Shown: positions 1,346-41,459 of the stretch, one piece after another | How positions within the stretch are numbered: position 1 is the stretch's first letter | How the letters are laid out: each line of letters opens with the position of its first letter | Origin: Amoebophrya sp. A120 | Lineage: Eukaryota > Protista > Dinoflagellata | Direction: 5' to 3' | Length of the DNA: 64,000 nucleotides | Assembly: GCA_905178155.1 (NCBI GenBank) | Contig: CAJINV010000008.1 | Coordinates: 2,232,001 to 2,296,000, forward strand | Notes under the pieces: model-generated | What the model was told of the DNA's origin: nothing | Seen by the model: only the letters and a program-made list of their open reading frames with translations | Database searches by the model: none | Made by a program: the position numbers and the translations under genes

Positions 1346-3607
1346 TTGGATAGATCAAGAATATTTCAGCATGCTTTGATTGCCTTTTTTTGTGCGATAT
1401 CAGAGGGGACACGACCATTGGAACCCACAGATCGTGACGTTGGAGTTGACCCACCAGCATCCCCGCACCCGCTGACCCTGCGCGGCGACTCGGCTCCCGG
1501 TCGCGGTGGGGCTAAAGAGCAGAAGCTTGGAGGCGTCCGCAGAGCCGGCGCGTTCGTCGGCAAGCAACTGAGCGCCGCACGGTATCAAAAGGAAAAATCC
1601 CCCCTCCCCATATCGAAAAGGTATGTTTCCGAAAATTTCTGTTGCTGATTTGAGGTCACAAATCATGTCTGTCTTGCAAGAAGACAAGGGCAGAAGCTTC
1701 CGCCCCAATATGGAAGCGATTTGCCATGCTGTTGGGCCTAAAAGTGACCCGCTTGCCGTGCTGAACAACTAGACCCATACGCCCCTACCCAGCCTGGGGA
1801 TCTGGCCGCAGTACCTCTCTGCAATACAAACCCGATTTCGGTACACAAATCCAGCATCAGAAATTCCGTTTTGATATGGGGAGGGGGGATTTTTCCTTTC
1901 GATACACGGGAAGCAGTCGCTTCTCGCTTTAGCGGGGGAGCTAGGAACAGGAGAAAATCCGACCTACCGGGGGAAGCCTGCACTTTGTATCACGTGGCCC
2001 GCGACGGCAAGCCGTTTTTCGATGCGAGTGAAGATTCCGGCGCAGACGGTGCGAAGTGTAGAAGCGGCATACACGATCATGATCGTGGTCGGGTCGCACC
2101 AAGTACCGCGTTGACGCCCCGGCTATCAAATGTAAAAATGTCTGGGTCTGGAAGATTGGAACTTGTGATGCTAACTTTGGAATGTAAAAAAATCTGTATT
2201 GCATGACCAGCAAGAGGAGCCACATTTGTGCTACGCGAGGAGGGCATTTGTCATGCGCAAATGGCATCAGGAAGCTTTCCAAAACTCTGTGATGCTGGGT
2301 CATGCATTACAAGCATCATGGGTCATGCCAGACAAGCATGACAAGCCTTCCATTCTTCCAGACCCAGACATTTTTACAGTTGATACCGGCGCCGCAGCAT
2401 CGAAGAAATCTTAAACGATTCGGATCGCGTATGGATGTGTCAGAGTTGAAATCGTCAAAGTTGAAATGATTTGTCATGCAAAAAATGCGACACAATATTG
2501 CAGAGGACGCACGGGAGGCAGATCATAGTCCTGGTAAGGGTCAAAAGTTGGACTGCTGACTAGCATGACAGAAGGCACCTCTTTTGCCCTGAACCGCATG
2601 ACAGACTCGCTTCCAGGACCGGGAAAATTTGTCATGCACCGACTACAAACTGTAGGCCTAATTGGTATCCGTTTTATGCATGACAAACTATCTCAACTTT
2701 GACGATTTCAAACCTGACACATCCATATCGCGTTCTATCGAAGTCCCCGCGCTATGCCTGGAGTATGTTTAACTCAAGTCAGGGCCATGGTCAGCGACAG
2801 CTGGTGGTACAGGCTAGCTGTGCGAAAATGCAAGAACTCTTGTTGTCTTGCCGATACTTATCAGTCCGTGTGGCTTGTTGTCGTGCACTTGTTTTTCCAA
2901 CATGGAAAAAATAGCAGTGCCTGGTCGGGCACCTTCTGCCTGACAAAGATACAAGCAGAAGCCGAAACTGGGTAGGAAGTCGAAACATAAAAAACCCACT
3001 ACAGAAGTAATAAGTGACGCGACACAACATTTTACGTAGCATGTTTTACTTCCTGTACTTTACTTACCTTAGGTATTCGATTTTTGTTTTGGAAGCCTGA
3101 CGCGGGTAAGATTTTTCCAGTCGAAACGCTCGGAAGCGCAACAAAATACTGCGAGACGAGCGGCAGTCGGTTTCCGTCCCCCAATAGCAGCGGAGCTGGG
3201 AAATATCCAAGAAGAAAACTCCTTTACTGTGGTCCTGCATTTGTAAAGGGTGCAGCACAGTTGGCTTGCATGGCTCATATATAAAGTGAGCGCTGAAATG
3301 AAATAAAACTCTTTTACGCTTCGGTTTTTTTTTTGGGATGTCCGCCTTTCGCTGCAGCTGCTTTGTGTTTATGCAAGAGAAGCCGCTTGGCAAACGTCCT
3401 CCAATCATGCATCATGTTTGTCACAGTGAAGCCTTTTTTTTGTGTGAAACGAAATCGTGCGGGAAGAACAAACTTCTTGCGGCCCCAGGAACGGGCCCGC
3501 ACACCGACTCCCGGCGTTCGCCGTCACCGAGGGGGTCACCAAGGGGATCACTCACTGTGCATGCAGCGACCTCGCCGAGAACTTCGATTGCATCCCTGAG
3601 AGGTTGA
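1346..3607 (+). CDS. Hypothetical protein, 6 exons (4 introners + 1 GT-AG intron); true start uncertain
   Basis: Removing 1583-1909, 2124-2390, 2430-2732, 2763-3072 and 3204-3454 gives one frame: SAAR|EAVA...TPR|RRSIEEILNDSDR|VLSKSPRYAW|SIRFLFWKP...GAGK|SCGKNK...SLRG*. Confidence 0.7.
1583..1904. mobile_element. Introner family B
   Basis: TIR TATCAAAAGGAAAAATCCCCCCTCCCCATATC; TSD CACGG. Confidence 0.9.
2124..2385. mobile_element. Introner family A
   Basis: TIR TATCAAATGTAAAAATGTCTGGGTCTGGAAG; TSD CCGGC. Confidence 0.9.
2430..2727. mobile_element. Introner family C
   Basis: TIR TATGGATGTGTCAG..TTGAAATCGTCAAAGTTG; TSD TCGCG. Confidence 0.9.
2763..3072 (+). other. Canonical GT-AG intron
   Basis: GTATGT...CCTTAG; removal joins frames. 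Confidence 0.65.
3204..3449. mobile_element. Introner family D, degenerate
   Basis: Decayed TIR; TSD GGAAA/CGAAA; frame restored. Confidence 0.65.
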
Positions 3608-4567: not shown

Positions 4568-7440
4568 ATGCCGCCCCGTGGGTCCGCTGGTGGTTCCTCC
4601 GTGGCGTCCGTCATAGATGGAGTCAATACTTACATACAAGCCGGACCGGGAGGCCTCAGCGTGCTGTGCTTCTTCTACCCAGTGCAAATACTGACAGGGT
4701 GACTCAGAAGTCTGGATTAGAATGATCGCAGCAAAATTTTATCACGGAGGATTAGCACGAGCGGCTAGTATTCTTTTTATTACGGCAGGAAATCGTCAAA
4801 AGAGAGGTTATGATTTTATTTAGTTTTCGGGGTGGTTTTGTATGTAAAGGTACTCTCCAAGTAGTCTGCTGGAGGAAAATAATTGCCAACATGCTACAAA
4901 TCTAATAAATGCGTGGTGTTTCCTCGTGTGTGTGTGTGGAAACGCGGATACAACTTTGCGCAAAGCATGCTAAGTATGGAGTTTGAAGGGAATCAATTGA
5001 TGGTGATTGGATGTTTGTGCCAGCTAGACGGCAGCATTCGTTTGAACCCAGGGTGCTGCATACTGGTTAATATTTGCACATTGCATATCCGCATAGGAAT
5101 CGCCACGATGGTCGTGGGTGTAATGGGAGTGCTCGAGGAAGTTATGGACCTGTCTCTGTTCATATGCGACGCAACTATACAACCGCCTCTGCCCCTTCGA
5201 ATCTTCATGACAGCTGGTGAGCAGCAAAAAGATACCCGTGCGATACTCATGTCACATTTTAGACGTGTAGTGAAGATCCAGGACACGAGTGTCTATGCAA
5301 GCTAGGTGCAGGCGCATGAAAAGCGAGAAGCATGTAGTATCGACTTCATTTTCCCTCTTTATGCAGCGATGGAGGGCCCTCACCCTCCTCATGTGCGCGA
5401 GCTCTTCATACCATACATGTGTGGGTTTTCGGGCGTAGTTTCACTGCATAGGTCAGCGACCCGTTCGACTTCGTACAATCTCTTCAGCTGTCAAATGTCA
5501 ATCTTCTGTACCTCCATCCAAACTACAGACTGATTTATTTCGAAAAACCAGATGAAGAAGTCAGGCCTTTTGTTAAGGTCGTATGATGATCTCTGTTAGC
5601 TGGAGGACGGAAGGTCCTCGAGGGACCTCGTTTTGAATTTTTTAAGAAAAAATCTAACTCCCAATTGATGGCGCTTTCTGCAAAAACAAAAACACTTATC
5701 CATATAGACTCTGCACCTCTATCTGTGTTTCTTCGGGTTTACTGCGGTGCTGCTAGAGTCGGATGCGGAACATATTGAACTGAAAAGTTGTTGTGCCGCT
5801 GCGCCGCCATCACGGGGAAATGTTTGCATTACAGCGCTCTGTGGGGAAGGTCTTTTATGCACCACCGACACAATTACTTGTCATTGTCAACCACGAATTT
5901 AGCCGAAATAATGATGAATCTGTGTAGTTGCACACTAGAGACGATGTTGCACGAGTAAAGAGGCGCGCCACGCCGAGATGCGCCGTTCCTCCATGGAAGC
6001 ATAAGGCTTCTTTGGGCGTGGGCCCGAAAGGGAGTCTTTGCACGACACGAACGTGTGTGCCGTTTTGAAGCGGGGCACTTTTCATTCTGATAAAGCGAAT
6101 CAAGGACGTCCCCGTCGTCGGTCCCCTTTCCGTGCATTTACACGCCTATCAAAAATTCGTCAACGAGTACGCGCACTTCCTCACGCACATACGCGGACGG
6201 GGCGGTTATCCTGTGCAGAAACATCCCCGCCCCGGAGTCAGGTCGGGAATTCTGCAACACAAATGAAGAAGTTTTTCTCTGTATTGTAGTGCAGGTTACC
6301 TCGAGCTCCAAGAACAGCCGCATCACAAAGCCGCCAGCTAATCCTGTTTACAGCAGTACAAAGCGCCAGAAGACGAATGGAAATGCCTCCGAGGCGCATG
6401 CGCATTACAAGCGTTCCTGTAATTGCAGATCTACATGACGATTTTGGTTGACAGCTATTTGCGGCCATGGGCACAGGGGGAGGCAAAGAGTGTCGCGCTT
6501 CTGTTTAGCATGACGATGGTGCGGGGTTGGGGAAGTTTTTGCTCAGGATCGCGGTTTCTACATATTCATCGGCACCTTTTGTTACGTCGAGCGGAAAACA
6601 AGGCTGCTCTTGCACTAGTAGTGCAGTTGTCCTCGGAAGGCGACCTAAATCAATGCGTAAACTAGGTACTTGCAGCAGGAGTTCAGTCTTATGCCACTGG
6701 AGGGCTTCTGCAATGAGACAGGCTCCTGCGAGGACGTGGGGTAGATTGTATGATCCATGGTAGCACGTTACAGAATGACCACCTGTGCACCACAATTTCC
6801 CATCCTGATGCAGATTGAAATTGGCATTCCGTTCGTTATCCGAGACTACAGCTACTGCTTACATTGGCACCACACGTTTTCATTTCATATCTGCATCACT
6901 GAGTGCATACTCTGCCCGCTCTTCCTGGTAAAAGTAGTCTTTTTTGCCTACAAAAGCTTCTCTTCGTGCCGAATGAAATGTGATGATGAAAGAGATGCTG
7001 GCTCGCAGATTTCTCGTGCTTGCGCTTTACCATTCAGCTGCATATTCGCCATGCAAGCGCTGCTGCGTCGAGATCAGGATCGATTATGCTGGCAAAACTT
7101 TACACAAAAAGATTCGCCCCAGTGCCAGTGTATCATATCAGATATTCCGATATTGGCTTCTGCACGCGCAAAGAAATCCAGACTACAAGAAAATATTGAA
7201 ACCTGCAGGTCGGCGCTGCAAACGGAGCGGTTGGAGTATTGCTCATGTTGCTGTCGTTTGGATACAAACCAGATCTCAGCTCACAGAACGTACTGTCGAA
7301 AGTCTGAACAGAAGTTCCATAGTTGGGTGGTCGGCTGGTCATCTATACTTACATGTGCAGTTGTAAATAAAGCTTTCATCAGGTGCTGGATGATTAAAAT
7401 ATCAAGCCCTGTTCTACCTCCGGGGGCACGACAGAATTAG
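4568..7440 (+). CDS. COPI-associated / TVP15-18-like multi-pass membrane protein, multi-exon; 3' end and one internal junction unresolved
   Basis: Joined exons read YIQAGPGGLSVLCFF|IGIATMVVGVMG...HLYLCFFGFTAVLLESDAE|QIKDVP...YAHFLTHIRGRGG|FYIFIGTFC|ITECILCPLFLV. The FL...GRG.FYIF.G signature matches my recollection of the COPI-associated family. Not visible in the ORF track. Confidence 0.6.
4676..5087. mobile_element. Degenerate introner
   Basis: GTGCAAATA...TATTTGCAC inverted ends; TSD TCTTC/TCCGC; frame restored. Confidence 0.55.
5773..6092. mobile_element. Introner family F, degenerate
   Basis: TATTGAACTGAAAAGT...ACTTTTCATTCTGATA; TSD decayed; element+5 restores frame. Confidence 0.6.
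6207..6550. mobile_element. Introner family E
   Basis: Internal similarity to 12806-13084; TSD GCGGT. Confidence 0.8.
6583..6889. mobile_element. Degenerate introner
   Basis: TAC...CATA ends; TSD TTTGT/TCTGC; frame restored. Confidence 0.5.
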
Positions 7441-8371: not shown

Positions 8372-8405
8372 CCGCAGCCGGCGAAACTTGTCGTTGTTGG
8401 GGTCA

Positions 8406-9207: not shown

Positions 9208-12200
9208 ATGGCGCCCCAAAGTAGAATCAGCGGAAGGATAGAGGATCCTTTGCTCTCGTTTGACAAAACGGAGTTACCAGAGGAAAAAACGAGCGGAGCG
9301 ACTTCTAACAAGACGAGTGCGGCAAGGACTCCGGATAACTTAGTGTCGGCGGACGTTTCGTCTGCGACCGCTGGTCCTACCCCCGCTCGGTCTTTGCTTT
9401 TCATGAAGCTGTTCTTCACCGCACCACCGTTGTTTCTCCTTGCTCTCGGCTTTTATCGCGGCGTCGCGCGGCATAATCCGTACGTCCAGTATGCTGTGCT
9501 GGTCGCCAGTGAAAGTGTTTTTGGCGGTAAAAAAAATCATGGTAGCTCGTCCTTAGCAGCCGACGTCGTTGTAACGCCACCAGGACGAGACGACGGGGAG
9601 ACCACCGTGTCCGTTGCTGTGGCGAGGAAGCCCCACGCTCAGCAAGTGTTAGACGCAGAAACAGTGCGTTCTCTTGTCGGAAAAACGAAGGAAAGAAGTA
9701 CTACTACAGCAAACGCTGGCGCTAGATCACCAGCCCCCGCAGGGCACCAGCAGCAAGAAGACGCAGCTAACCTCCAGGAGTTGTACGTGTGTCAGCTCTA
9801 TTCACCGCAAATTACATGCCTGGGTCTGGAAATAGTTTGTGATGTCCGCGCTCCCCGTGAGAAACTAATAAGACGACTTAATTTATTAGTTTGCATGAAA
9901 ATTTTTTGAAACCCAGGTCTCAGCACCGCACAACTCGCTTGAGAAAAAATCACGTCTTTGCATGACCAACTAAATAATTTACCCGGCGTTAACTCATCCG
10001 CTGCTCGTGCTTCATTCGAGACGCCCCAACAAGAGACGTGTGCTCCACATTCTCCCAAAGCAAGTCATATTTGCGGTGGATAAAGAGTTGGTCAACCACA
10101 CACTCGGCGTGCTGTCTGCGAGCAACACCGGGCAAATAAATCACGACTTCTTCAAAGGTTCCGACCTCAGGGAGCTGTACAACCTGCGGCTTGATAGTCA
10201 TGTCGACACGGGCAAAAAAATTCTCCTACAGGGTGACCACGTCACCAAGGTGTTTTCCACAAGGAGCAGCAAGTTCGATCCTGACGACAAGACGTCTGTT
10301 ATTACCCATGGCGAGACGTCAATCGAGGAAACTTCTGCAAGTGCAACACCGAGCGCGGCGGCTGCTGCGCAAAAACTGGCGTCGCGAAAAAATAACGCAA
10401 CAACCACCTACACGTCGCCGACGCCGTTTGTTCCTTTCGGGGACTGGATCTTTGATCTGCAGAAACTTCGCGAGGAAATTCAAGCAAACAAGGACCGTTT
10501 CGTATCAAAGTGAAAAAAGCCCCCACCCCATATCGGAAACGGAAGATACGCGAATTTGTGATGCTGTATTTGAGTACACAAATGGACTTGCATTGCTAGA
10601 GGGCCAAGAGACTAAGCTGCGGCCTAAATTGCAAGTAATCTGTCATGCTGTTTCCCACTTCCAGTTGCCTCCTGTCATCCTGGAGCTGCAAGGCTTTCCC
10701 ACGCTAGACAGCACTACAGTCCGCATCTTTTGCCTTCTAGCATCACAAAGCTGATTTGTGACCCCAAATCTGCATCACAGATTTCCGTCTTGATATGGGG
10801 AGGGGGGATTTTTCCTCTCAATATTTCGTCGTTGTCCACGATTTTTTGTCGCCGGAGTTTCTCGCCCGAGTATTCTATTTAAAAACGTCCCCACCCCATA
10901 GTTGTAATGCAAATCTGCATGCTGAAAATGTTTCTCATGCGGAGCCCCATGAGAAGCATTTTCCAATCGTGTTTTGCAATTTGTCGTGCTCCAATCAGCA
11001 TGGTATGCTAGATCTGTAATGCTGCTGAGCTACCTCAAACAGCACTACACTACGAGTCCAAATTTGTCATGCAAAACAGACAAGACTTGTGGACTTCTCT
11101 AGCCGATTGCCCATCTTGACTCTGGTGTGGGTACGTTTTTACTCAGGATACCGAGTGACTGCCGCGTATCCCGAGGTTGTAGTCAACGAAGTGTTGGACG
11201 GGGAAAAAATGAAAAATGACAAAAGCAGCCCCAAGCTCAAAAGCGAATCTGTGTCTGGTGCACAAAACATAGGAACGGAAATGAACAACACTACAACAGA
11301 AGAACTAGTGCCATCAGAAGCTGCTGAGTCCATATCCAGGAAAAAAACTGTGTCAGTGTAACTTTTTTCGGACGAACAGCATCACAAATGAATATCGGAC
11401 GAACAGCATCACAAATGAATTATGGTAAAAATATCGGCGCGGTTCTTTTAGAATCACAAATGAATAAATATACCTGGCATGATTGAGGACAGCAAAATAA
11501 AGTTGCCATACGAAGCAAGTACTGGGTGGAGAGTTGTACGTGATAACACGACACATCAGATACGAAACTTGCCTGCGACAACGCATGTCAAGCATGACAA
11601 CAAGGTTCACAACTGTTTTGCGGCGTCTGTACTTGTTCTGCAAAGTTACGCACAGAAGTTTTTGTCTTGCATAGTCTAACTGGTTCATGTACAGCAACCC
11701 GTTGGAGGTCAAGTACTTGAACGATCACTTCGAGCGGTACCAAGCCGACCTGAAACGGTATTTTCACCTTTTATCCCACCCGGTCGTTGCCCATGTGTTC
11801 ACGAAGCTCTTCGACTTTTCGGAAGCACTTCACTACGATCCAGTGATCCACGGTGGGGGATTGCACGCGATGCCACGGGTATCGCCAGAAAGAACTGTTT
11901 CACTGTAAACTTGTAATGCAGAAAATGTATTTCACAAGTGTTTGTCTTGCTAAACATGCAAGACAGTGGAGTTTTAGCTGTGTTTTCCCTTAGGAACCTT
12001 GCATGGCAAATTTTCTTTGTCATGTAGAGCAAACTTGTGATGCAAAACCTGCAAAATCCTTGCAGTGAGACACTTTTTTCGTACGATAACGGGGTGGCCG
12101 GCTGAACATGCACCTGGATTACGAAAAGCACCCCTTTCTGAAAAACAAGCAGCGGCGATTGAATGTGATTTTCTTCCTCAATGACGAGTGGCGGGTATCC

Positions 12201-14020
12201 GATTGCACATCAGAACCCGCATCCCCCATCATTTGTTGAGTATCTATGCATTAGAATAGCATGAAATTGTTCATGCGTAACGATCGAAGCTTAAGCTTTC
12301 ACTTTAATTATTACCAGAAATTTAGCGCATGTGGCAAGAAACACAAGAAAGGAATTTATTATCCACGTGCTTGTCCTCGTTAGAGACTCCGGCCCGTGGT
12401 TTTTACTAGGCTTCTGCACCTTGTCAAATGCAGTGTGCTGCAGTTAGAGAGCAATAAGGACAACGGGAGTCCGAATGATGGAGGGGAGGCAGAGTTGTGC
12501 ACTCTCATAGCGTGAGGAATGGAACGGAGACGTCCAATTGTGGTCGTCGAAGAGGACAGGAAGTGGCACCCCGGCAGGTGGAGGTGACGCGGCCGAAAAT
12601 AAAGTGGAAGACGGCACAACAACCATCGGCGTTGGTGTAGTCGAAGCGCATGGGAAAAATCAGGAAGCCGGAGAGGTTGCTGAGGGTACAAATAAAATGT
12701 TGTCCGAAGCAGGGCCGGATGAGGTAACCGGAACAAGAAGTCGAAGCGCTTCTTTATCATCGCGTACTACTAGTACTATCAAAAATATAAGTAACCCGAT
12801 GGACATATCCTGAGTAAAAACGTACCCACACCAGAGTCACCACGGGGATTTTGCAACACAAGCCTAGGAGTTTTGTGAGTCACGCATGACAAGTTGCACT
12901 CTGCAGTGTAGTGCAGGTTAGCAAGTGCAGCCGCATCACAGATTCATCTGCTCATCCTGTTCACAGCATCACAAATTCCAAAACACGATTGGAAATGGCT
13001 CTCATGCGGATGCGCATTACAAGTCTTCCTGTCTTTGCAAATCTGCATCACAACTCTGGCGTGGGTACGTTTTTACTCAGGATAGGACAAGATGCTGACC
13101 CGGCACTACCCGAAAAAAAACTCGGTCATCATCTTATCAACTGCAAAAGTGTCTGGGTCTGGAAGAATGCAAGTTTGTTATGCTTGTCTCACATGATTCT
13201 TAAATTTGTCATGCACATTACCCAAGAGCCCCATTTTGCTGTCATGCAGAAACGCAGTTTGTCATGCAGATTAGGCAACACCTCTAAGCTCAAAAGCTTG
13301 TCATGCTGAGCCAGCATTTGTGGCCTCTTCATGATACGCCACCCAGCATCACAAGTTTCCAGACCCAGACACTTTTACAATCCATACATCTTCAAGACGG
13401 ACGAGGAATCCTTCCACGGGGTGCCGGACGTGTTGCTCAATCCGGCAAACTATCAAGTGTAAAAATGTCTGGGTCTGGAAAGTTGGAACTTGTGATGCTA
13501 ACTTTGGAAACTAAAAAAATCTGTATTGCATGACCAGCAAGAGGAGCCACATTTGTGCTACGCGAGGAGGGCATTTGTCATGCGGAAATGGCATCAGGAA
13601 GCTTTCCAAAAATCTGTGATGCTGGGTCATGTATTACAAGCATCATGGGTCATGTCAGACAAGCATGACAAGCCTTCCATTCTTCCAGACCCAGACATTT
13701 TTACACTTGATACAAACACGACCAGAAACACCATCACCTACTACTACCTCTCCGACCTGCAGTCAACCTCGGATCTAAAGAAACAGGGCGCGCTCTCCGA
13801 CGGGTTTCGCGCGAAGGCCACGTACTTTCAGCGGCCGACCGAAAACGTGGACGAGAACTTGCAGAAACTGTTCCAGATCCGCAGCAAACGAAGAATCGAG
13901 CAGAGCGACTTGGACGAAATTTTGGGCAAAGATTGGCACTACAAGGATTCGCTGCCCGAGGGACGGGGGCGAGTATTCAGCGACGAGGCGAAAGTGGAAA
14001 AAGAGAAATCCGAACTATGA
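9208..14020 (+). CDS. Membrane-anchored 2OG-Fe(II) oxygenase (prolyl-hydroxylase-like), about 10 exons
   Basis: N-terminal hydrophobic stretch. Spliced motifs FVVVHDFL, WFMYSNPLEVK, HGGGLHAMPRGGRLNMHLD (HxD), RRLNVIFFLNDEWREEWNG, FKTDEESFHG (distal His), RNTITYYY. First intron (~9790-9995) boundaries unresolved. Confidence 0.85.
10503..10823. mobile_element. Introner family B
   Basis: TSD TTTCG. Confidence 0.9.
10871..11150. mobile_element. Introner family E
   Basis: TIR ...GGGTACGTTTTTACTCAGGATA; TSD CCGAG. Confidence 0.85.
11333..11673. mobile_element. Introner family D with internal 27-bp tandem duplication
   Basis: TSD GTCCA/GTCTA. Confidence 0.8.
11880..12088. mobile_element. Introner family D
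   Basis: TSD ACGGG; diverged reverse complement of 42028-42236 (both 209 bp). Confidence 0.9.
12196..12509. mobile_element. Degenerate introner
   Basis: TATCCGATTGCACA...TGTGCACTCTCATA; TSD GCGGG/GCGTG. Confidence 0.7.
12806..13084. mobile_element. Introner family E
   Basis: TIR TATCCTGAGTAAAAACGTACCCAC.CCAGAGT; TSD GGACA. Confidence 0.9.
13135..13386. mobile_element. Introner family A
   Basis: TSD CATCT. Confidence 0.9.
13451..13712. mobile_element. Introner family A, near-identical to 2124-2385
   Basis: TSD CAAAC; same 262-bp length. Confidence 0.92.
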
Positions 14021-15280
14021 CTTATAAGCGGCGAGTCGTAGTCATTTGTATTTCGGGTATAATTTGTTGTTGTGAACCACTAGTGCCAGCTCCGTCGTGA
14101 TGTACTTGTATTGTAGTGGATGCGCCGAACTAGAACTCCTATCCATTTTATTCAGAAAAACTACGTTTGTTCATGGAAGCCGCTACGATGGACCACTACG
14201 TGGACCATTCATTCTATCTCCTGAAGCTTTCCGATTTCTGATTCTCTTTCTCGCCTTATTTCAGAAACCCTCCCTGAAGTTCTTGACGTTCGCGCGGGAG
14301 CCCGATGCGCTTGACTATTTCAGCAACCAACTGGAAAAGATCGCGATTCTAAGTTTCCGTGAGTGGACGAAGCAAAATGCATGCGCATGAAAGGAGTAGG
14401 AATTTTTTGTGTTAGGAGCATCACGTTTGAGTTTTTACATTTAGCTAGTCGCGGCACTGAAAGATCGCAATTGAGTTCTTCAGATCAACATGAGAAACGA
14501 ATTCTCTGATGAAGTTTCTTCCGACTACCGCCTTCTTCGTACGTATTGCTTGTGCAGACGATTTCTCTAGGTCCAGTGTTCGATATCTCGATATCATCAT
14601 GGATGATGCTTTCTTGGCCCACTACTTACGGTGCCTAAGTGAGTAGCTGAATTTCGTCGACTACCGGAGCCATGCGGCGGTCACTTCTGGTCGTTCTTGA
14701 ATAAAAATTCGTTGCTTTGTTTTCTATGCTTTTTGGTTTTGGAGGATGAAGTGATCGTCATGATAACAGTACACAAACACACTAGTAGGATCTATTGGTC
14801 CACTTTTCAACATCGTCGCGAACGGAAAATTGGTCGTGAGCAGATGAAGATCCTTCATCTACTTTTTCCCTATCGATTTAAGCGTGATCGTCATCGTCAG
14901 CATTTCGTTTCGAAATCAATCGCTCATTCGTGTTGTCGCTTCTCTATTCCCATTTTGGTCGTTCCAAAATGACATGATCGTTGTGTAAGAGGGAGAGAGC
15001 CCTCCTTGGATACCTCCTTGAAGCGTCCAGACCAGTAAGCCAACATCGGATATCCGGTTCGCCAAAAATTATTTCGTGGTGTCCACCTAGCCGTCGTGTG
15101 TATGATCCCCGGCAAAGCATGCATCGTATTCTTCCAAAGAAGCATACTGTATAGGACAACTAGAAAGTCGTGCTAGACTAAGTTCGTCATGATCATTTTT
15201 GCTAAAGTGCACATGGATATGGGAAATTGTATTAATGGGTCGTCCTCACATCACAGCATCGCGGGCGGTGATTGTTCACA

Positions 15281-18200
15281 ATGACGATGACATTCGGACA
15301 TCACACGCCTGATGCCGAATTGCTAAAGAATGACCCCGACCGTATTGCGGCGAGCGAGAGTTCCTGCGACGAGCCTTCATACCTTCTATCCACGATGTTC
15401 CTCGATACCGTGGTAGCGTTTGCGCTGTTTCTCATTTTCCAGGCCCACCAACAGGGAACGGCAACTCTCACTTTTGCGTTCCTTTTCGGTAGCTTGGTGC
15501 TCTCGAGAGTCATTCGCCCAAAACGGCGGGGAAAGGTACTACCTAAGCGTGGTTCTGACTGATCTTATTTCCTTTTTTTGATTATGAATGTAAAAAATGT
15601 TGAGAAATGTGCGCAGTCTTACACTTCGCCGCAGGAATGTTGCGCCATGTGTTTTCTCCCTATAATTGTGTCTGTGGGCAACTTGAGTAACATTATCCTA
15701 CTTCTTAAGTAACATTATCCTGTCTGCGAGGTAACGTCATCAAGCGCTTTCCTTCAAGACGACGAAAACAACAATGCGAACTTGGGAAAAGAAACGATCA
15801 AGCACGGTCGCGAGAATCATTTTTCCAGAGCTAGAGGTCAGCAGCAGGACATCACATCTTCAGGGAGGAAGAGCGATGACACCAACCCGCGTGTGTCTTG
15901 TGCTTCCCGGATAACGATTGCGCTCATCTTGTTTGCGATTTGTATCGCGCTTGCGATACCTCCGGAAGGACATACTACGAGTCTTTGGGCAACACTTTTC
16001 GAAGATCCTAAGCAGCTGCAGGATAGAACGACATGGTCGTCGTTCGTAACAAAAGAAGCAGAACGAGACGCTGGCTCGGAAGTAGTCGATAGCATAATAC
16101 CGCGCGTGATTCGCAAACTGGGTTCCGAAAGGGAAGAAAAGAGAAGATCACTTTCGGTAGGCGATGAGGAGAACAACGCTGAAAAACTACCCGATGGGAA
16201 CAACTTCGAAGACGGCCGCAGTTTTTACGCCCGCATGAAGCAAACGCTTCTACCTGATATTGGTACGTTCGTCGAAGATGACAAGAATAGAGCTGCGAAG
16301 CCTCCTGAAATCTCGAACCCGAGCGAAGTGAGGAACGGCGAGTCTGGCGACGCGACGGGGCCAGAGGATAGCGATCGAGCTGGTGGGGCAGACACCAATA
16401 CGAACAGAACCAAAGATGACAATACCAGCTTTCTTGCATCGACTTCAGTGGAACTGCCAGTGAAGTTACACGCTAATTACACGTACGTATCAAAATGGAA
16501 AATGCCCCGCCCGTAGAAGGAGGTGTAATTGCTTGTACATGCAAAGTTTATTCCAAAGGAGTAGGGAACTAAGTTTTCGGTTCGCATGGAGGGACTGTGA
16601 ATCTGTTTGATCCAACGCAAATCTCCAAGGAGAACAAACTAGCCTGCACATGCATCCGGCGTCCTCAGCATGTAGTTGCTGGGCCCTGACCCATGCATGG
16701 CCCGACCGTGGTCTATCCTCACATACAAGGCGGCGCTGTGCTTGTTGGGGCGTCGTCTGACTTTTGCATTCTGCAAGCATATATTTCAAACTTAGGGGTA
16801 GGGGCACCTGTTTTCATTTTGATACTACGAGGAGTTTCGCAATAAAACTGTGTCGATCGTAATTCCGACCAAGTTCGAGGAGGCGTACATCGTGAAAACT
16901 ATCAAGTACATCTACGAAACGACACCAATAGAGCTGCTGGAGGAGGTTATTATTGTGGACGACCTCTCCCCCCAACCAGTTTTGCCGCTCTTTGAGGACG
17001 CCTTTCGCGACAAAGACTACTGGATACTACACCCGGATGGACACGAAGTCGGCGGCGTGAACACAGGAGATGAAGGACATCAAGTCGTTGCCCGCCCTGA
17101 AGTAGAAGGAGAACACCAGATCCAGAGCTCGTCCAGCAGTGCTAGCGGCGCTGCAGCAACATTCAGCAGCTCGTCCTCCGTGACCGACGTGATTAATTCC
17201 GCGAGTTTCACGGGCCATGTGCACGGCGACCCTAACTCCACTTCGAGCAGAACCACAACGCTGGCAACCAGCATGGAAGCGCTACTGGTGAATGCAACGT
17301 GGGGACCTGTGACGGCGTCGACTACAACTAGCTTGTCGCGCGTCAAAACGAACTACACCGGTTTTTTGTCGTTTCTCACCTCGGAACAGCGGAGCACGTT
17401 GAAGATCCTGCGCAACGAGTATGAAGGCCTCAGAATGGAAATCCTCAAAGTGGAAATAATTTCTGACGCATGGAATGCGACGGAAAAAAGACTGTATTGC
17501 AGAAAACCCAATGGAGGCCGACTATTGTCCTGCTAGGGGTGAAGAATTGGAGTGCAGCTTAGCATGAGAGAAGGGCACCCCTTTGCCTTAACCTGCATGA
17601 CAGACATGCTTTAAGTGCCCGGGAAATTTGTCACGCGCCGACTACAAATGGCGCTTCAACTGGAGTTGTTTTTTTGCATTACAAATTATTTCCACTTTGA
17701 GGATTTCCAATCTGAGGCTTTCATAACGAGGTGCACCAGGGTTTGATCCGCTCGAAGATCCAGGGGGGACACATTAGCTATCAACTGTAGAAATGTCTGG
17801 GTCTGGGAGAATCCAACTTGTCATGCTGATTTTCGATTCTAAAAAAATCTGTATTGCATGAGGAGCAAAGAGATTCCAAGTTTTGCTACACGGAAAGAGC
17901 ATTTGTCATGCGGTATAGGCATCAGGAAGCCCTCACAAAATCTGTGATGCTAGGGCATGCATCACCAGACATCAGGAGCAGTCATGCAAAATGTGCATGA
18001 CAAACCTGGCAATCTTCCAGACCCAGACACTTTTACATTTGATATTAGCACGGGCAGCCACATCTTCTTTCTGGACGGCCACTGTCAACCCTACAAGTTC
18101 TGGCTGGAGCCGCTGCTGCGCCGCGCGTTGGAAAACGACCAACGCATCGTCCTGCCACTGGTCGGAGACATCAACGCCACGAATCTTGACAAGTGGGCCC

Positions 18201-20836
18201 CGATCGGAACCAGCGGCGGCGCGAAAATGATGTTCGAATGGAATTTCGAATTCGACTGGTTTGACGACGGCGGTGACGACGTGCCCATCATGAGCGGCGG
18301 GCTCCTGCTCATGAGCCGCAAGTGGTGGGACCTAGTTATGGCGTTCTCAACTGTTACATTCTAAACTGTTACATGGATTTGTCATGCAAAAACACCATTA
18401 TCATCCTCACGATCAAGCTGCTCCGCATGACAAATTTGCGGAGGGCTCACTAGCACTATAATCCGTCCCAAATCTGTAATGCAAAAGGCGCAATCTTCCT
18501 CCTTTCACTTTTGCCCTTCTTGCATTACAAATTCGTGTAACAGTTCAGAATGTAACATTTGAGAACGCCATACTAGTGGGAGGCTACGACGACGGCATGG
18601 CGGATTGGGGCGGGGAAAATATCGAACAGAGCATATCAAAATGAAAAATCCCCCCTCCCCATATCAAAAAAGAAATTTGTGATGCTGATTTGTGACCACA
18701 AATCAGCTTTGTATTGCAGAGAGGCACTGCGGCCAGCTCCCCAGGCTAGGTAGGGGCGTATGGGTCTAGTAGTTCAGCATGGCTAACGGCCCTCCTTTAG
18801 GCCCAACAGCATGACAAATCGCTTCCATAATGGGGCGGAAGCTTCTGCCCTTGTCTTCTTGCAAGACAGATGTGATTTGTGACCTCAAATCCGCAACACA
18901 AATTTTTGGAACATACCATTTCAATAGGGGGAGGGGGGATTTTTCCTCTCAATAAAGCATGCGCACCTGGATCTGCGGCGGCGAGGTGGTGGTGGAGCGG
19001 AACAGTTTAGTCGGCCACATTTTCACCCGGTAGTGCACTTTGTTTCTTCTTCATCAATGAAAAATTATCGAGTTGGTTGTACCATGCGCAAGTGCAGGCT
19101 TGGAAAGCAACATGAGTATTCTGGGTCTTTTTGTTCAGCTGCACAACTGAAATACTAAATGCGTCAGGGATTGGGATACATACTTTACTGTTTTTTTGTT
19201 TAATGCGGAAAAGTACGCGCAGCTCTGATGTCCTTGGAACTGAAAACATTACTTCGTTCTTTGCGTCCCAGGCCCGCGAACCCGAAGAAAGTTCGGCCAA
19301 AATCCGTGGAGCGGAACAAAGCGCGGGCTGCGTACGTATGGCTGGACGAGTCGTACGAGAAGCATTTTCTGCCGGAGCAGGATATCTTGCAGAAAAGTAT
19401 ACCCATACGAGTGTCATAGCGAATTTGTGTTTCTGTTTTCCTTTGACAGACCATAGGAGAGGCCGACGTTTTTTGTGATGTACAATACTTACAGTTTGTT
19501 CGTAATGATAATGTATCCTGCAGTTTGGTGAGTTGTAGTAGTAGAGAAAACTTTGTAGTCTGTTGTCATGCTGCACAGCCAAAAAGAGCCGCAGCACAAA
19601 TTTATTTGTCTTCTGGTATGCAGCTTCTAATACAGGACGAACGAAGCTTGCGCTAAATTGTTTTCTGGTATGGGTGTACTTTTCTGTGGAGTACAGGAGC
19701 ACGCTCGGAAAATGGACTTGGGGAACTTCTTGCTCACCCGCGTGCTCTTTCGCCACGAGTTCCCGACCTGCAACGAGCGGACCTTCGACTGGTGGTTTTC
19801 CGAGAAGTTCTACCACGTCTTCGAGACCCGCGGCCTGGTCCTGTCGGAAGCCCACCACATTCGCCACACGGTCTCCGCGCTCTGCCTGACCGGAAAAGAC
19901 AACGGCAAGGAGGAGCTTGCCACCGTGCACCTGCAGCCGTGCGACGCCTATAACCAACACCAAAAGTGGTCGCTGATCACCAACGCCACACGGCTCGTGA
20001 ACCACAAGCTGAAAAAGTGCCTGGACCGGGGGAACGACGAGAAGCGCAAGACTCCAATCCTGTACCAGTGTGACCACACCAACGCCAACGCGAACCAGAT
20101 GTGGACCTTCGGGAAGCAAAAGTGGGCGCCGAAGCAGGGTGTCCGCTTCAACAACCACGTCGATAACGAGCACGCGTTTGTGCACGAAAACAAGGTGCTC
20201 TACACCGGTGCCATCGTCTCGGATTTGAATAGCAAAGCCTTGGCTGTGTCGGTGTCCTCGTTTCGGCCGCTGAAATGCCTTACGTGGAGCGACTCGGCAG
20301 ATAAGCAGGACTACGATCTGGAGGAGCACACCATCGACGACGTCTTCAATGTGAACACGGACACGCTCGATTACTACGATAAGCTGGCGGCGAAAGTCAT
20401 GCGGCGCCGCACCGCGAGAATCGTGGCGTCGCAAAATAACAGGAGCCATCCCTTGAGTAAAGGGGACGGCGTTCTTGACAGTCCTGCAGACCATCTTCGT
20501 CAAGATGCAGCGAACAGCGGGGCTTCAGCTGCTGGTGGACAACTAGTGCAGCCGGATGGTCGTGGTGGTACAGCGGAGGATGGACTGATAGGAACGGCAG
20601 ACGAGGAACCAGGACCTCTCGGAGAGCACGAAGAAGATGAGCAGATGAGTGAAAGTGACAGAGAATACCGTAAACAGAACAAGAACTACGACGCAGTACT
20701 TCGGCGGAGCGATAGCGAGGAGGAGACAACGGAGCCACCACCCACTGACGAACCTGGAATGGTGGAGTGTGCCGGAGTAGGCATTGCAGACGTGTCTTGG
20801 TCTGGAACGTGTGGTGCGCGAAATTTGCATTGCTGA
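15281..20836 (+). CDS. Polypeptide N-acetylgalactosaminyltransferase (GT27) with C-terminal ricin-B lectin domain, copy 1
   Basis: SIVIP, EEVIIVDD, GLIRS, FLDGHC (DxH), WLEPLL, GGYDDGM.DWGGENIE.S.R.W.CGG, VGHIF, VWLD and QxW repeats. Six introners plus GT-AG introns 15536-15730 and 19030-19271. Confidence 0.9.
15536..15730 (+). other. Canonical GT-AG intron (phase 0)
   Basis: AAG|GTACTA...GCGAG|GTA; joins ORF 15272 to the 15782 frame. Confidence 0.6.
16488..16824. mobile_element. Introner family F
   Basis: TATCAAAATG.AAA.TGCCCC / GGGGCA...TTTTCATTTTGATA; TSD GTACG/CTACG. Confidence 0.8.
17420..17725. mobile_element. Introner family C-like
   Basis: TIR TATGAAGGCCTCAGAATGGAAATCCTCAAAGTGGAAA; TSD ACGAG. 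Confidence 0.9.
17779..18044. mobile_element. Introner family A
   Basis: TSD TTAGC. Confidence 0.9.
18337..18572. mobile_element. Introner family G
   Basis: TIR TATGGCGTTCTCAA.TGTTACATTCT; TSD CTAGT. Confidence 0.9.
18634..18954. mobile_element. Introner family B (reverse orientation to 1583)
   Basis: TSD GAGCA/AAGCA. Confidence 0.9.
19030..19271 (+). other. Canonical GT-AG intron
   Basis: GTAGTG...CCCAG; joins VGHIFTR to PANPKK, collinear with the paralogue. Confidence 0.8.
19383..19693. mobile_element. Introner family E-like
   Basis: CAGAAAAGTATACCCATAC / GTATGGGTGTACTTTTCTG; TSD CAGGA. Confidence 0.85.
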
Positions 20837-25700: not shown

Positions 25701-28517
25701 TTGCTTGAGAATGCAACGCATTCTGAAAACAATCCCCGAGGCGGAGTTTACATAGCTTTGTGGAAATAATTTCGCAGAACTGGCGTTGCGCAGCTTCTCG
25801 CTGTCCTAATTCAGTGCCCATACGAAAGTTCTTTTTCGATTTCTATATATGCAATTGTCGAAGCTGAAACTTCATCTTCGTCTTTCTGGGGTACTAGCAT
25901 GGGTAGTTCTCACTTTGATACGACCACCGGCAGGGCTTAATCCGTGCGAAGATCATGGGTGCCAACGCCGCGGTCGGAAGCCACATTTTTTTTCTGGACG
26001 GTCATTGCCGACCCTTTGAGGGGTGGCTCGAGCCCTTGCTCCGAAGGTCGCTCGGGAACTACAAAAGAATTGTGGTGCCAACGATTCCCGACGTAGAGGC
26101 GAAGGACTATGGAATTCTCAAACGTTGCATGGACCTCGGTTGCATATATTTTTGCTTGATCTATTGTTATTTGCAGATGATAAAAAATTCTGCGTATCAG
26201 GTGGCATAGTTCAGGTAGGCGGTTTCTTTCCATGAGGAAATTACGACGCGCTTCTCACTAGTCATTGAAATCCGTAAGTCCCAGTATTGCATGCTTATGC
26301 AAGAAGCGCAAGCTGGTCCTCTCTTCTATTGCTCTTCCTCATATGCTATTCTTGTAGCAGCACAGAGAGATGATGTTGATCTACCTCTCCAGCAAAAGAT
26401 CACGTAAACAGCGATCCAAACAGCGTGTGGGAATGCCATAAGGACTGGTCCAAGAAGTCGAATGTCGGAATCAAGATGATGTTCGAGTGGAACTTCCATT
26501 TCGACTGGTTTGACGACCCGGGAGACGAAGTGCCAATACTGAGTGGGGGGCTACTGCTGATGACAAAAAAATGGTGGAACGAGATGGGCGGGTAAGTTAG
26601 TAGAAAATCGGAAGAACTTCTTGTTTGTTCACAGTGCATACGCATTTGTTATTCTTGTTGTTCGCAAAGGTACACTGTGTCTGTGGGTAATATGGCCACT
26701 TTCCTGTTGCAGTTCTCTTTTCATCATCTTGGCGGTCCGCGGCACCGGTACTTTGAATACCTCTTCTGTATTGTCTTGCCTGGCTTGCGTGGACAAAGAG
26801 GCGATTTTCGTCGCTTGCTTTCTTCTGTTTCTTCATTCATCTCTTTGCGAGATTTAATATGGCCAGGACAACTGAATCTGAACCTGAAGAGATACCAAGG
26901 CGCTGTCAGGTCTGAATAGAGAGTGGGTTTTCAGCGAGGTTTTCTTGCTTTGGTGATTGAGTACGCACTGTGCCAGGACGAGAAACGTAAGGAGGTCGTC
27001 CTCGGACCTGCCTATTACCACAAGGTGCAACCCCTACATACAAATTTCAGTGTTTTTTCCTTGCATCTTGACGCTGCTTTTGAATAATCTTGATTCGGCG
27101 CAAATAGGTATGACGACGGCATGCTGGAGTGGGGCGGCGAAAATATTGAGCAGTCCCTTCGCTGCTGGATGTGCGGCGGGGAGATCGTCGTAGAACGTCA
27201 CAGCCAAGTATCCAGTGCAAATCTCCTCGATTTATTGGGTCTGGAAAGTTGTGATGCTGCGTTGTCATCAATGCTTGCAGCACTCGCAGTAAGAAAACGC
27301 TACCAGTGCCAGGCATGTGACAATGCAGGTGCTAGTCCCGCTCCTGTTCGTCATGTACATATTACAGGATTTAGGAGGACGAGGATGTAAGCCAAGCTAG
27401 GTTATTTACGTGAAATTGCACTTTGGTTTTCATCCGATCGAGATCGATATTTGCAATGCATCCAAAGTGGGACACATCTTTTTTCGCCCGCAGCCCCCAA
27501 ACAAGGTGAAACCGCTGACCGTCCCGCGGAATAAGGCACGAGGGGCCTACGTTGTATCGCGAAAAAAAAGACCACGACAATTTTGACATGAGAAATATTT
27601 CGCCTGTCTGCACAGACAGTTTCTTTGGGTCCACTCACACAGTTTTTATTCTGCAGACTAGCTGCATTCCTCGTGCGTACTATTATGATGGTCCGCGTAC
27701 GGCAAGGCGACACACATGCAGAACAAGTCACGTCGCGATATTAAACATACATGAATATGATCTTACCGTATGATTTTCGTGGTGCTTTTTTCTTGGATGT
27801 GGGTGGCTCGACAACTACTACCAGGTGTTCGCAGACCGAATGCCGGACGTGAAAAACAAACTAGATCTGGGTTCCAACCTGCTGGAGCGGATGCTCTTCC
27901 GCTTCAATTACGGGTGCGAGAAGTTCCAGTGGTGGCTTCGCCGGTTTGAGAGCGTGTTCGAAACCCAGGGGCTCATCGTGGACAAGCAGCACCACCTACG
28001 CCACACCGCCACTGGCTACTGCATGGAGGGGACGGACAAGGGCAAAATCGTCTTCGACGTGTGCTCGCCCGAAAAGGACACGCAGAAGTGGGGCTTCATC
28101 AACCAGCGCAAGCGGCTCGTCAATGCCAAGTTTAAGCGGTGCGTGGACCGCGGCAATAACCCCGGCGCCGTGACCCCCATCCTGTACAACTGCGACCGTG
28201 TATTGTCCAACCGAAACCAAATATGGCAGTTCACCAATCACCACGACCCGCCCTCGCAAAAGGACCGGAACTTTCACGACGATAAAGCCTTCGCGGGCCG
28301 CCTGTACAGCAACAACGATTTGGACTCAGCAACATTTAACTACGGAAAGTGTCTCGGCGTGGGTATGAACAGTATGGTGGAGAAAAAGGTAGACGATGTT
28401 GACTCCTCGAAAAGTAATAAAGCCGGCGCAGGTTCTCCCCCAATCCTGAATATGTTCAACTGCGGCCAAAGTCTGGACGACGACCTGAAGAAATTCCAGT
28501 TTGACGTTATCTGGTGA
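22732..28517 (+). CDS. Polypeptide N-acetylgalactosaminyltransferase (GT27) with ricin-B domain, copy 2
   Basis: Same motif set (SIIIP, EEVIVVDD, GLIRA, FLDGHC, WGGENIE, VGHIF, QKW/QIW). About 9 introners plus GT-AG intron 26592-27107. Junction ~25172-25545 unresolved. Confidence 0.88.
22747..23058. mobile_element. Introner family E, degenerate
   Basis: TSD TTGAA/TCGAG; frame restored from ATG 22732. Confidence 0.6.
23122..23439. mobile_element. Introner family F
   Basis: TSD GAACA/AAACA. Confidence 0.75.
23501..23750. mobile_element. Introner family D-like
   Basis: TATGCAAGAAAAAA...TTTTTTTCTTGGATA; TSD CCACG. Confidence 0.8.
24078..24403. mobile_element. Introner family B (reverse)
   Basis: TSD ATCAA. 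Confidence 0.9.
24664..24864. mobile_element. Introner, weak TIR
   Basis: TATC...GATA; TSD TCTTC; frame restored. Confidence 0.75.
25586..25920. mobile_element. Introner family F, degenerate
   Basis: TSD CGATC/CGACC; restores RNDHRQGLIRA. Confidence 0.75.
26108..26440. mobile_element. Introner family G, degenerate
   Basis: TATGGAATTC...GAATGCCATA; TSD AGGAC. Confidence 0.8.
26592..27107 (+). other. Canonical GT-AG intron
   Basis: GTAAGT...AATAG; restores GGYDDGM. Confidence 0.85.
27209..27462. mobile_element. Degenerate introner
   Basis: TSD CCAAG/CAAAG; restores SQVGHIF. Confidence 0.7.
27555..27799. mobile_element. Introner family D-like, highly degenerate; boundaries approximate
   Basis: AAAAAAAGACCACGA / TCGTGGTGCTTTTTT; interrupts AYV|WLD. 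Confidence 0.55.
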
Positions 28518-41118: not shown

Positions 41119-41459
41119 TATGGCCTGCTCTGATTGAGCAAGCTCAACCGGAACTACAAGATGTGATGCAAAATGCGGTTGACGATAGCATAGACATAGA
41201 TGTAGATCGGCCTACGCCTTGGTCTAGCTACCAGAATTCGAGCCACCTAGCATGACACGACTCTGACACAAATCCGAACCGCATGACTTGAAATTCGCCG
41301 CAGGAAGCAGAATAGTATCCCTTCTGCCATTTGTTTTTGTAGTGCGAAGCACATTTTTTCTTCCAGGGCTTTATATTAGGCCTGATTTTATACATAGATC
41401 CAGTCTCAATTGAGTTTGTTCCAGCTGAGCAGGGCATAGGTGCCGGCGGTGGCAGTGGT

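What the first reader, a model, noticed from the sequence alone, without database searches (positions are those of the whole stretch)
13130..13717. No GT-AG register is possible, and several TSDs contain no G at all
With TA-starting and TA-ending elements, a frame-restoring GT-AG excision needs a TSD of form GGTNN, AGGTN, NAGGT or NNAGG. None of the roughly 30 intact TSDs fits. CATCT (13135), CAAAC (13451), ATCAA (24078), TCTTC (24664), CATTC (54073) and AACCT (54600) lack G entirely, so neither a G-initial donor nor an AG acceptor exists in any register. Only a few TSDs (CAGGA, AGGAC, GGAAA, GGACA) permit GA-AG. TSD sequences look unconstrained. Inference: junctions are defined by the paired TIR stem and flanking repeat rather than splice dinucleotides, implying a second splicing route alongside the GT-AG introns in the same genes.
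Basis: partly seen in the sequence, partly recalled or inferred. Interest (0 to 1): 0.85.

Follow-up and report, generated by a model that had tools for sequence, protein, structure and literature searches.

The report
Transposon introns spliced without GT-AG
These are already described small transposons of the marine parasite Amoebophrya that sit inside genes and are missing from transcript assemblies although they lack the usual GT-AG intron signals; decayed copies point to one fixed cut position, which likely means a relaxed spliceosome rather than a separate splicing machine.

Summary
Observation confirmed; phenomenon already published. The window is Amoebophrya sp. A120 (annotated proteins match its exons). 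The elements are the non-canonical introners of Farhat et al. 2021 (ends TAT-N7-AAA, 5-bp direct repeats). 0 of 50 allow GT-AG or GC-AG in any register; chance predicts about 1.4 of 45, so TSDs are unconstrained. Transcript-like contigs and three annotated proteins lack exactly the element plus one TSD.

TSD identity is dispensable (copies with 2-4 of 5 mismatches are removed) and 13 of 50 lack a predicted end-to-end stem. Nine decayed TSDs agree on one register: cut after TSD base 4, intron N-TAT...ATA-NNNN. It keeps U+2 and A+3 of the GUA donor; the 5' TA is intact in 30 of 30 backed introns, the 3' TA in 25 of 30 (p 0.026-0.052, post hoc). Best reading: a relaxed major spliceosome (0.55); a non-spliceosomal cut-and-ligate route stays open (0.2). 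No junction-level RNA evidence was obtained for 13135 itself. The scan noted similar introns in two other dinoflagellate windows (unchecked).

The parts
13130..13134 (+). Left TSD copy (CATCT) of the first element
13135..13386 (.). Introner/MITE, 252 nt, TIRs TAT-N7-AAAA; inferred intron 13134-13390 (TT..TC) at register 4
   Evidence: hairpin z -4.0 with unpaired terminal bases; removal of 257 nt keeps the ORF; no junction-level RNA row shown
13387..13391 (+). Right TSD copy (CATCT)
13446..13450 (+). Left TSD copy (CAAAC) of the second element
13451..13712 (.). Introner/MITE, 262 nt, 30-bp perfect TIR; inferred intron 13450-13716 (CT..AA)
   Evidence: hairpin z -8.8; X3 contig piece starts at 13713
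13713..13717 (+). Right TSD copy (CAAAC)
9208..14020 (+). Host gene, 2OG-Fe(II) oxygenase family, with nine introners (9799, 10503, 10871, 11333, 11880, 12196, 12806, 13135, 13451)
   Evidence: one open frame after removal; P0007 identical over 614 aa at register 4 or 5; PF13640 E 1.8e-06, profile 3-55 of 98
13113..13120 (+). A8 run; likely site of the 1-nt excess in the X3 contig; the annotated partial protein stops just before it
   Evidence: inference
9799..10082 (.). Decayed element (TSD 1 of 5 identical) fixing register 4
   Evidence: X3 piece starts at 10087; P0007 residue 197 is L
4676..5087 (.). Decayed element, register 4 or 5
   Evidence: X3 piece ends at 4674
6583..6889 (.). Decayed element, register 2-4
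   Evidence: X3 joint 6579>6892, depth 0 in X1
5163..5450 (.). Decayed element, register 2-5
   Evidence: X3 loose end before 5453 equals 5150-5159
3204..3449 (.). Decayed element with broken 3' TA, register 1-5
   Evidence: X3 piece starts at 3451
16488..16824 (.). Decayed element, register 1-5
   Evidence: X3 pieces end 16483 and start 16826
27209..27462 (.). Decayed element with broken 3' TA, register 2-5
   Evidence: P0003 junction residue
27555..27799 (.). Decayed element with broken 3' TA, register 3-4
   Evidence: keeps the VW shared by P0001, P0002, P0003 only at 3 or 4
41119..41438 (.). Decayed element; register 5 would give an in-frame TAG in a 1,226-codon frame
15536..15730 (+). Canonical GT-AG intron in the neighbouring GalNAc-transferase gene
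   Evidence: X3 pieces 15533>15729
19030..19271 (+). Canonical GT-AG intron, same gene as seven introners

Best explanation
These are non-autonomous terminal-inverted-repeat transposons with random 5-bp target duplications; transcript-like contigs lack exactly the element plus five bases, decayed duplications point to a likely fixed cut after base 4 of each copy (intron N-TAT...ATA-NNNN), and the cutting is likely done by a relaxed major spliceosome that would read U+2/A+3 at the donor and would set the 3' site by distance from the element end instead of by AG. Shown: anatomy, free TSD sequence, exact removal in X3 contigs and annotated proteins, elements intact in DNA-like contigs. Inferred: the single register (nine elements); spliceosomal chemistry; the A at -7 as a possible branch point; the hairpin bringing the ends together in young copies, possibly standing in for the U1 snRNA that Farhat et al. 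did not find. Because the two ends are inverted copies, either orientation offers the same donor, which would explain why the element can insert at any exonic site.
For: Exact removal: X3 joints of 349, 312 and 342 nt equal L+5; predicted middle of X3 contig 12 is 573 nt, observed 573; 24 of 24 element junctions in P0001, P0003, P0007 match L+5 (21 by script, 3 read), although 20 of 24 have a frame-keeping GT-AG pair within 35 nt. Register: allowed sets 1-5, 4-5, 2-5, 2-4, 4, 1-5 from six X3-covered elements, 2-5 and 3-4 from P0003, not 5 at 41119; only 4 fits all nine. Published Table S4 agrees: the nine top A120 motifs all have T second, the nine top A25 motifs all start TT, and A25 repeats start TTA, so both strains give U+2 A+3. 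End asymmetry: 5' TA broken in 0 of 30 backed introns, 3' TA in 5 of 30 (Fisher p 0.026 one-sided, 0.052 two-sided); A-7 kept in 49 of 50. 83 of 89 spliceosomal proteins and U2, U4, U5, U6 reported in A120. Precedent: Fritillaria, 95% non-GT/AG introns, divergent U2AF.
Against: G+1 in only 18 of 50 and AG at the end in 4 of 50, whereas the yeast structure explains GU/AG conservation by G+1:G-1 and branch-A:A-2 pairs. U1 snRNA not found in A120. TA at both ends is also what a transposase needs, and most of the catalogue was picked by TA ends; the asymmetry test is post hoc and borderline. 19383 lacks A-7. A branch point 7 nt from the 3' site inside a stem is unusual. Euglenid hairpin introns leave as circles, not lariats (as reviewed). 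Each RNA constraint rests on one or two contigs of one run whose RNA status is a guess, and the annotated proteins may derive from the same strain's RNA, so they are not independent. X3 contig 11 is 1 nt longer (918) than exact removal predicts (917).
Confidence: 0.55

Rival explanations
1. A spliceosome-independent route: an endonuclease cuts at fixed offsets from the element ends (1 nt outside the 5' end, 4 nt outside the 3' end) and an RtcB- or Trl1-type ligase joins the exons. This is the first reader's idea, with the ruler on the element ends rather than on the TSD.
For: 36 different dinucleotide pairs among 50 at register 4; both orientations work; strong hairpins in young copies; U1 not found; euglenid circles.
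Against: Seven backed introns have no predicted end-to-end stem; TIR positions 4-8 are the least paired, 23-32 of 45; the end that keeps TA is the donor end; the cut falls one base before UA in two strains with different repeats. No enzyme was searched for: no whole genome is held.
Confidence: 0.2
2. A dedicated second spliceosome (divergent U1-like RNA, U2AF or Prp8 paralogues) handles the introners, beside the ordinary one for GT-AG introns.
For: Two clearly separate intron classes share genes; the donor N-UAUC resembles the U12 donor, and 12806 reads ATATCCT with AT-AC ends; Fritillaria uses duplicated U2AF.
Against: Farhat Table S6 lists one PRP8, one U2AF65 and one U2AF35 for A120; minor snRNAs reported absent; +6 is C in only 18 of 50.
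Confidence: 0.15
3. The register is not fixed: both cuts slide together within the duplication, so both TSD copies reach mRNA.
For: 15 of 21 TSD mismatches in the first set are synonymous against 0.36-0.49 expected if one copy is free (p 0.001-0.03); Farhat calls the sites variable.
Against: With four more decayed elements the count is 17 of 29 (p 0.011-0.20); all nine informative elements fit register 4; register 5 gives a stop at 41119.
Confidence: 0.05
4. The joins are artefacts (reverse-transcriptase template switching across hairpin plus repeat), or the elements are removed from DNA, or nearby GT-AG sites are used.
For: Hairpin plus direct repeat is the recalled signature of template switching; 13135 has a same-length GT-AG pair at 13149-13405 that keeps the frame.
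Against: Joins occur where the repeat has decayed to 1 of 5; L+5 is a multiple of three in only 13 of 45, yet frames of 750-1,800 codons reopen; DNA-like contigs hold the elements and show depth 0 for two joints (some joints uncounted there); the shifted GT-AG pair for 13451 is excluded by the piece starting at 13713; 5 of 24 protein-backed elements have such a pair and do not use it.
Confidence: 0.05

Closest known systems
Amoebophrya sp. A120 non-canonical introns / introner elements (Farhat et al. 2021, PMC7789003)
   Same: Same organism; repeats start TAT, seven variable bases, then at least three A; 5-bp direct repeats; no splice dinucleotide signature; 65% of A120 introns non-canonical; editing at only 2-4% of boundaries; an alternate mechanism already proposed.
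   Different: The paper's text leaves the border unknown or variable (repeat 1-5 nt from the sites), though it notes four repeat bases upstream of the 5' end. Here decayed duplications give one register and a donor-side bias in TA conservation. Its figures were not visible.
Fritillaria borealis non-canonical introns (PMC13326754; Henriet 2019 as reviewed in PMC11282704)
   Same: MITE-derived, TIR and TSD, mostly non-GT/AG, coexisting with a GT-AG minority, removed by a modified U2 spliceosome.
   Different: They have preferred ends (AG-AC, AG-AT), U1 is present and U2AF is duplicated; here three of four terminal bases are free.
Euglenid nonconventional introns (PMC12501133; PMC11282704)
   Same: Free borders, TIR hairpin joining the ends, cut sites at fixed spacers outside a conserved paired motif, unknown machinery.
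   Different: Their code is N3-CDG...CH'G-N5-6|R; here N1-TAT...ATA-N4 with no purine rule at the exon start (G 18, A 14, C 11, T 7 in the TSD's fifth base). Circles shown there, nothing shown here.
Micromonas / Aureococcus / Polarella introners (PMC7789003 discussion; PMC11282704; PMC12130899)
   Same: Non-autonomous DNA transposons that create introns on insertion.
   Different: Those use GT/GC/GA-AG ends; these need no splice base from the target.

Membership tests
Amoebophrya A120 introner elements | Located in the A120 genome | tested here: met
   P0001 100% and P0007 99% to window exons, named Amoebophrya sp. A120; P0003 maps exon by exon
Amoebophrya A120 introner elements | Inverted repeat starts TAT, seven variable bases, then AAA | tested here: met
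   85 of 90 ends start TAT; 69 of 90 also have AAA within positions 10-16; definition
Amoebophrya A120 introner elements | Direct repeat of 3-5 nt over the exon/intron border | tested here: met
   32 of 50 perfect 5-bp repeats
Amoebophrya A120 introner elements | Repeated families | tested here: met
   blastn pairs up to 320 bits within the window; DNA-like depth over element bins thousands of times the flanks
Amoebophrya A120 introner elements | Removed from RNA at non-canonical sites | tested here: met
   X3 joints and length sum; X3 is only guessed to be RNA; 13135 itself has no junction row
Non-autonomous TIR DNA transposon (MITE) | TIRs, constant-length TSD, short, either orientation | tested here: met
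   145-436 nt, 5-bp TSD; both orientations
Non-autonomous TIR DNA transposon (MITE) | Cognate transposase sharing the ends | not testable with these tools
   no whole genome held; PMC12130899 reports TIR elements with integrase-like ORFs in A120
U2-type spliceosomal intron | GT/GC-AG ends | tested here: not met
   0 of 50
U2-type spliceosomal intron | U+2 and A/G+3 at the donor | tested here: met
   T 50 of 50, A 50 of 50 at register 4; partly by selection of the catalogue; 30 of 30 in the backed set
U2-type spliceosomal intron | Branch-point adenosine near the 3' end | tested here: inconclusive
   A-7 in 49 of 50, but it is part of the TIR
U2-type spliceosomal intron | Lariat intermediate, snRNP dependence | not testable with these tools
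   needs experiment
U12-type intron | Donor RTATCCTT (consensus recalled) and minor snRNAs | tested here: not met
   +5 C 30 of 50, +6 C 18 of 50, +7 mostly A; minor snRNAs reported absent
Euglenid nonconventional intron | N3-CDG / CH'G-N5-6|R code | tested here: not met
   donor +4 is T in 46 of 50; code
Euglenid nonconventional intron | End-to-end RNA stem | tested here: inconclusive
   core stem predicted in 37 of 50
tRNA-type / IRE1-type endonuclease-ligase intron | Bulge-helix-bulge or paired stem-loop cut sites | not tested
   no motif scan run; flanks are direct, not inverted, repeats
tRNA-type / IRE1-type endonuclease-ligase intron | 2',3'-cyclic phosphate and 5'-OH ends | not testable with these tools
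   needs experiment
DNA-level eliminated sequence (ciliate IES-like) | Joined form present in DNA | tested here: not met
   X1 contig 2702-7629 holds the elements with 0 differences; two X3 joints have depth 0 in X1 (some joints uncounted)

The most novel reading that the evidence does not exclude
Tens of thousands of nuclear mRNA introns in Amoebophrya A120 are removed without the spliceosome, by a ruler-type endonuclease and ligase that cut 1 nt outside the transposon's 5' end and 4 nt outside its 3' end, so that a transposon family has its own RNA excision pathway and can land at any exonic site.
Probability: 0.2. Interest if true: 0.9.

Novelty: already known. Interest (0 to 1): 0.42.

Why it matters
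The finding itself is published, but how these introns are removed is still open. A fixed register gives exact 5' and 3' ends and a candidate branch A, so lariat-versus-circle tests can be aimed at named bases. If the major spliceosome does it, it works without G+1 and without AG, the bases that structures explain as invariant. If it does not, there is a large-scale spliceosome-free mRNA splicing route in a eukaryotic nucleus. Either way a transposon that carries all its own splice information escapes the usual need for splice-like target sites.

Tried and rejected
Whole-genome searches for snRNA, PRP8, endonuclease or ligase genes: no genome held. Raw RNA runs X10 and X11 lie only on element copies (6 and 5 of 30 bins), so they hold no junction data for this stretch; no listed holder is on record as RNA. 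Junction-level rows for the gene 9900-14600 were not obtained, so 13135 rests on the open frame, the contig length (within 1 nt) and analogy. Homologue search with the last exon found nothing, explained by the partial annotation. Search of representatives with 40612-41112 gave 0 hits, so register 3 versus 4 at 41119 stays open. Pfam gave nothing on three short exon pieces; PDB search gave no useful relative; Rfam 0 matches in the window. Minus-strand GT-AG for AACCT rejected. CG enrichment in TSDs not significant (19 of 45, p 0.19). Sliding register: signal weakened on adding decayed elements. U12 membership rejected. The relaxed scan is mostly chance pairs; only 3204 and 25292, which have contig or protein support, were taken from it. 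Paper searches for a mechanism or register in Amoebophrya listed none; the library lacks most subscription journals, and Farhat's Fig. 3, Fig. 4 and S19-S25 images could not be seen and may already show the register.

Full report
Observation. The stretch 13130-13717 holds two elements, 13135-13386 and 13451-13712, each starting TAT, ending ATA, with terminal inverted repeats and an exact 5-bp duplication, CATCT and CAAAC. A strict scan finds 29 such elements in the window against a mean of 0.34 in 50 shuffles. Relaxed scans, contig ends and annotated proteins bring the plus-strand coding set to 50, 145-436 nt long, 32 with perfect duplications. I left out 1031, 8406 and 28979 (strand or TSD unclear) and scored 8106 apart (minus-strand gene).

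Writing the intron as the last 5-k bases of the left copy, the element, and the first k bases of the right copy, 0 of 50 give GT-AG or GC-AG for any k. AACCT would fit on the minus strand, but its gene is on the plus strand. Only 3.2% of flanking 5-mers fit GT-AG, so 1.4 of 45 are expected and zero is ordinary (P 0.23): the duplications are unconstrained, not depleted.

What it is. Window exons match annotated proteins of Amoebophrya sp. A120 (P0001 100%, P0007 99% to the queries). Farhat et al. 2021 (PMC7789003; passages, sections 10 and 11, supplement passages and part 3 of 5 read; figures not seen) report that 65% of A120 introns are non-canonical, that introner repeats start TAT, then seven variable bases, then at least three A, with 3-5 nt direct repeats, that editing touches 2-4% of borders, that U1 and the minor snRNAs were not found and 83 of 89 spliceosomal proteins were. 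Here 85 of 90 ends start TAT and 69 of 90 carry the A run. These are those elements.

Removal is exact. Taking out each element plus five bases reopens long frames: about 750 codons for the host gene of the finding, a 2OG-Fe(II) oxygenase with nine elements, and up to 1,800 elsewhere, although the removed length is a multiple of three in only 13 of 45. Contigs of run X3 (RNA by guess; they also skip a GT-AG intron) show skips of 349, 312 and 342 nt, each element plus five. The unseen middle of X3 contig 12 is 573 nt, exactly what five such removals plus one 242-nt GT-AG intron predict. All 24 element junctions in P0001, P0003 and P0007 match (21 by script; three read), including the G-less ATCAA and TCTTC, although 20 of the 24 have a frame-keeping GT-AG pair within 35 nt and 5 a same-length one. 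DNA-like contigs of X1 hold the elements and show depth 0 for two of the joints, with the caveat that some X1 joints were not counted. The annotation may rest on RNA of the same strain, so the two sources are not independent.

Results against. X3 contig 11 has 918 nt between 10497 and 13713 where exact removal predicts 917. P0007 is partial and stops at 13112, just before an A8 run, so a length variant of that run is the likely cause, but imprecise removal at one junction is not excluded. For 13451 the contig starts at 13713, which excludes the shifted GT-AG pair 13459-13725. For 13135 no junction row was shown, and a same-length GT-AG pair at 13149-13405 is not directly excluded; exact removal keeps residues that I recall as part of the family motif. 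Raw reads X10 and X11 lie only on element copies.

The register. Where the two copies of the duplication have diverged, the product shows which copy each base came from. Six elements covered by X3 allow k of 1-5 (3204), 4-5 (4676), 2-5 (5163), 2-4 (6583), 4 (9799) and 1-5 (16488); for 3204 and 9799 only the downstream piece and for 4676 only the upstream piece was shown, and P0007 confirms the 9799 join at k of 4 or 5. P0003 allows 2-5 at 27209 and 3-4 at 27555, where only those keep the VW shared by three homologues. At 41119, k=5 makes an in-frame stop. Only k=4 fits all nine. The intron then begins one base before the element (N-TAT) and ends four bases after it (ATA-NNNN). Farhat's Table S4 agrees: all nine top A120 motifs have T second, all nine top A25 motifs start TT, and A25 repeats start TTA. 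Their text calls the border unknown or variable but mentions four repeat bases upstream of the 5' end.

What defines the junction. Not the repeat: copies with 4 of 5 mismatches are removed. Not clearly the stem: young copies fold strongly (z -4.0 and -8.8), but the terminal three pairs form in the predicted fold of 27 of 50 and the core in 37 of 50, seven backed introns have no end-to-end stem, and TIR positions 4-8 are the least paired. Members of one family lie in both orientations in plus-strand genes, so the signal is in the symmetric ends. In the 30 introns backed by contigs or proteins the donor-side TA is intact in 30 and the acceptor-side TA in 25 (p 0.026 one-sided, 0.052 two-sided, post hoc), while the A at -7 is kept in 49 of 50.

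Mechanism. I favour a relaxed major spliceosome (0.55): the donor keeps U+2 and A+3 as in the canonical donors of the same genes (GTAC, GTAG, GTAA, GTGA), two strains with different repeats put the cut at the same place relative to UA, and the 3' site would be measured from the element end, perhaps from a branch at A-7. The yeast structure shows G+1 pairing with G-1 and the branch A with A-2, and that short branch-to-3' distances need no Slu7 (bioRxiv 10.1101/212811, passages); joint loss of G+1 and AG is therefore coherent but also the main objection. Fritillaria shows a spliceosome can adapt (PMC13326754, abstract and first part of the discussion; PMC11282704, passages and section 6). Rivals: endonuclease plus ligase (0.2; euglenid parallel, PMC12501133 abstract and introduction, and circles as reviewed); a dedicated second spliceosome (0.15; single PRP8 and U2AF listed for A120); a sliding register (0.05; synonymous excess 15 of 21 fell to 17 of 29); artefact, DNA excision or shifted GT-AG (0.05). 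None of the chemistry was tested here.

Novelty. Already known as a phenomenon. PMC12130899 (passages) treats A120 introners as diverse transposons; PMC9860276 cites the work only in its references. Searches listed no paper on the mechanism or a fixed register; subscription journals and the figures of PMC7789003 were out of reach. The added value here is the register and the end asymmetry, which make the open question testable at named bases. The scan's notes hold nothing for this genome and two unchecked reports of similar introns in other dinoflagellate DNA.

Verdict: observation confirmed, interpretation partly supported, already known, interest 0.42.

Noticed in passing
45 plus-strand elements, window-wide: Codon phase at register 4 is 26/3/16 for phases 0/1/2 (chi-square p 1.4e-4) although the TSD shows no base bias; a symmetric target-site preference acting on codon-structured DNA is my guess.
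   Followed up: partly
inside elements, window-wide: A shared 9-nt motif family TTGT(C/G)A(T/C)GC occurs 83 times in 12.9 kb of elements against 11 times in 51 kb outside, facing inward from both ends; candidate transposase or splicing-factor binding site.
   Followed up: partly
TIR positions 4-8, e.g. 13135 and 34553: End subtypes are mixed between the two ends of one copy and between copies of a family, while positions 1-3 and 9-14 are kept.
   Followed up: no
13113-13120: A8 run where the annotated protein stops and where a 1-nt excess in the X3 contig may lie; an extra A would cut off the end of the oxygenase domain.
   Followed up: partly
15281-21196 and 22732-28514: Two tandem polypeptide GalNAc-transferase-like paralogues (P0001, P0003) with 7 and 10 introners at different sites; 17420 and 25586 fall one base apart in the aligned codons, apparently independent insertions.
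   Followed up: partly
12805-13088: At register 4 this intron reads ATATCCT...AC, a U12-like look in a lineage reported to lack the minor spliceosome.
   Followed up: partly
7590-8700: Minus-strand ORF among plus-strand genes, with elements 8106 and 8406; a direct repeat of about 40 nt near 7590 and at 8661 accompanies the broken TSD of 8406.
   Followed up: no
X10 reads on 2124-2174 and 17428-17727: Raw RNA reads of another sample with the same species label hold retained or unspliced copies of two element families at other loci, and none of the window's exons.
   Followed up: no
34713-36314: Long exon with four DUF4116 repeats (PF13475, E 5e-28) in a frame of about 1,800 codons.
   Followed up: no
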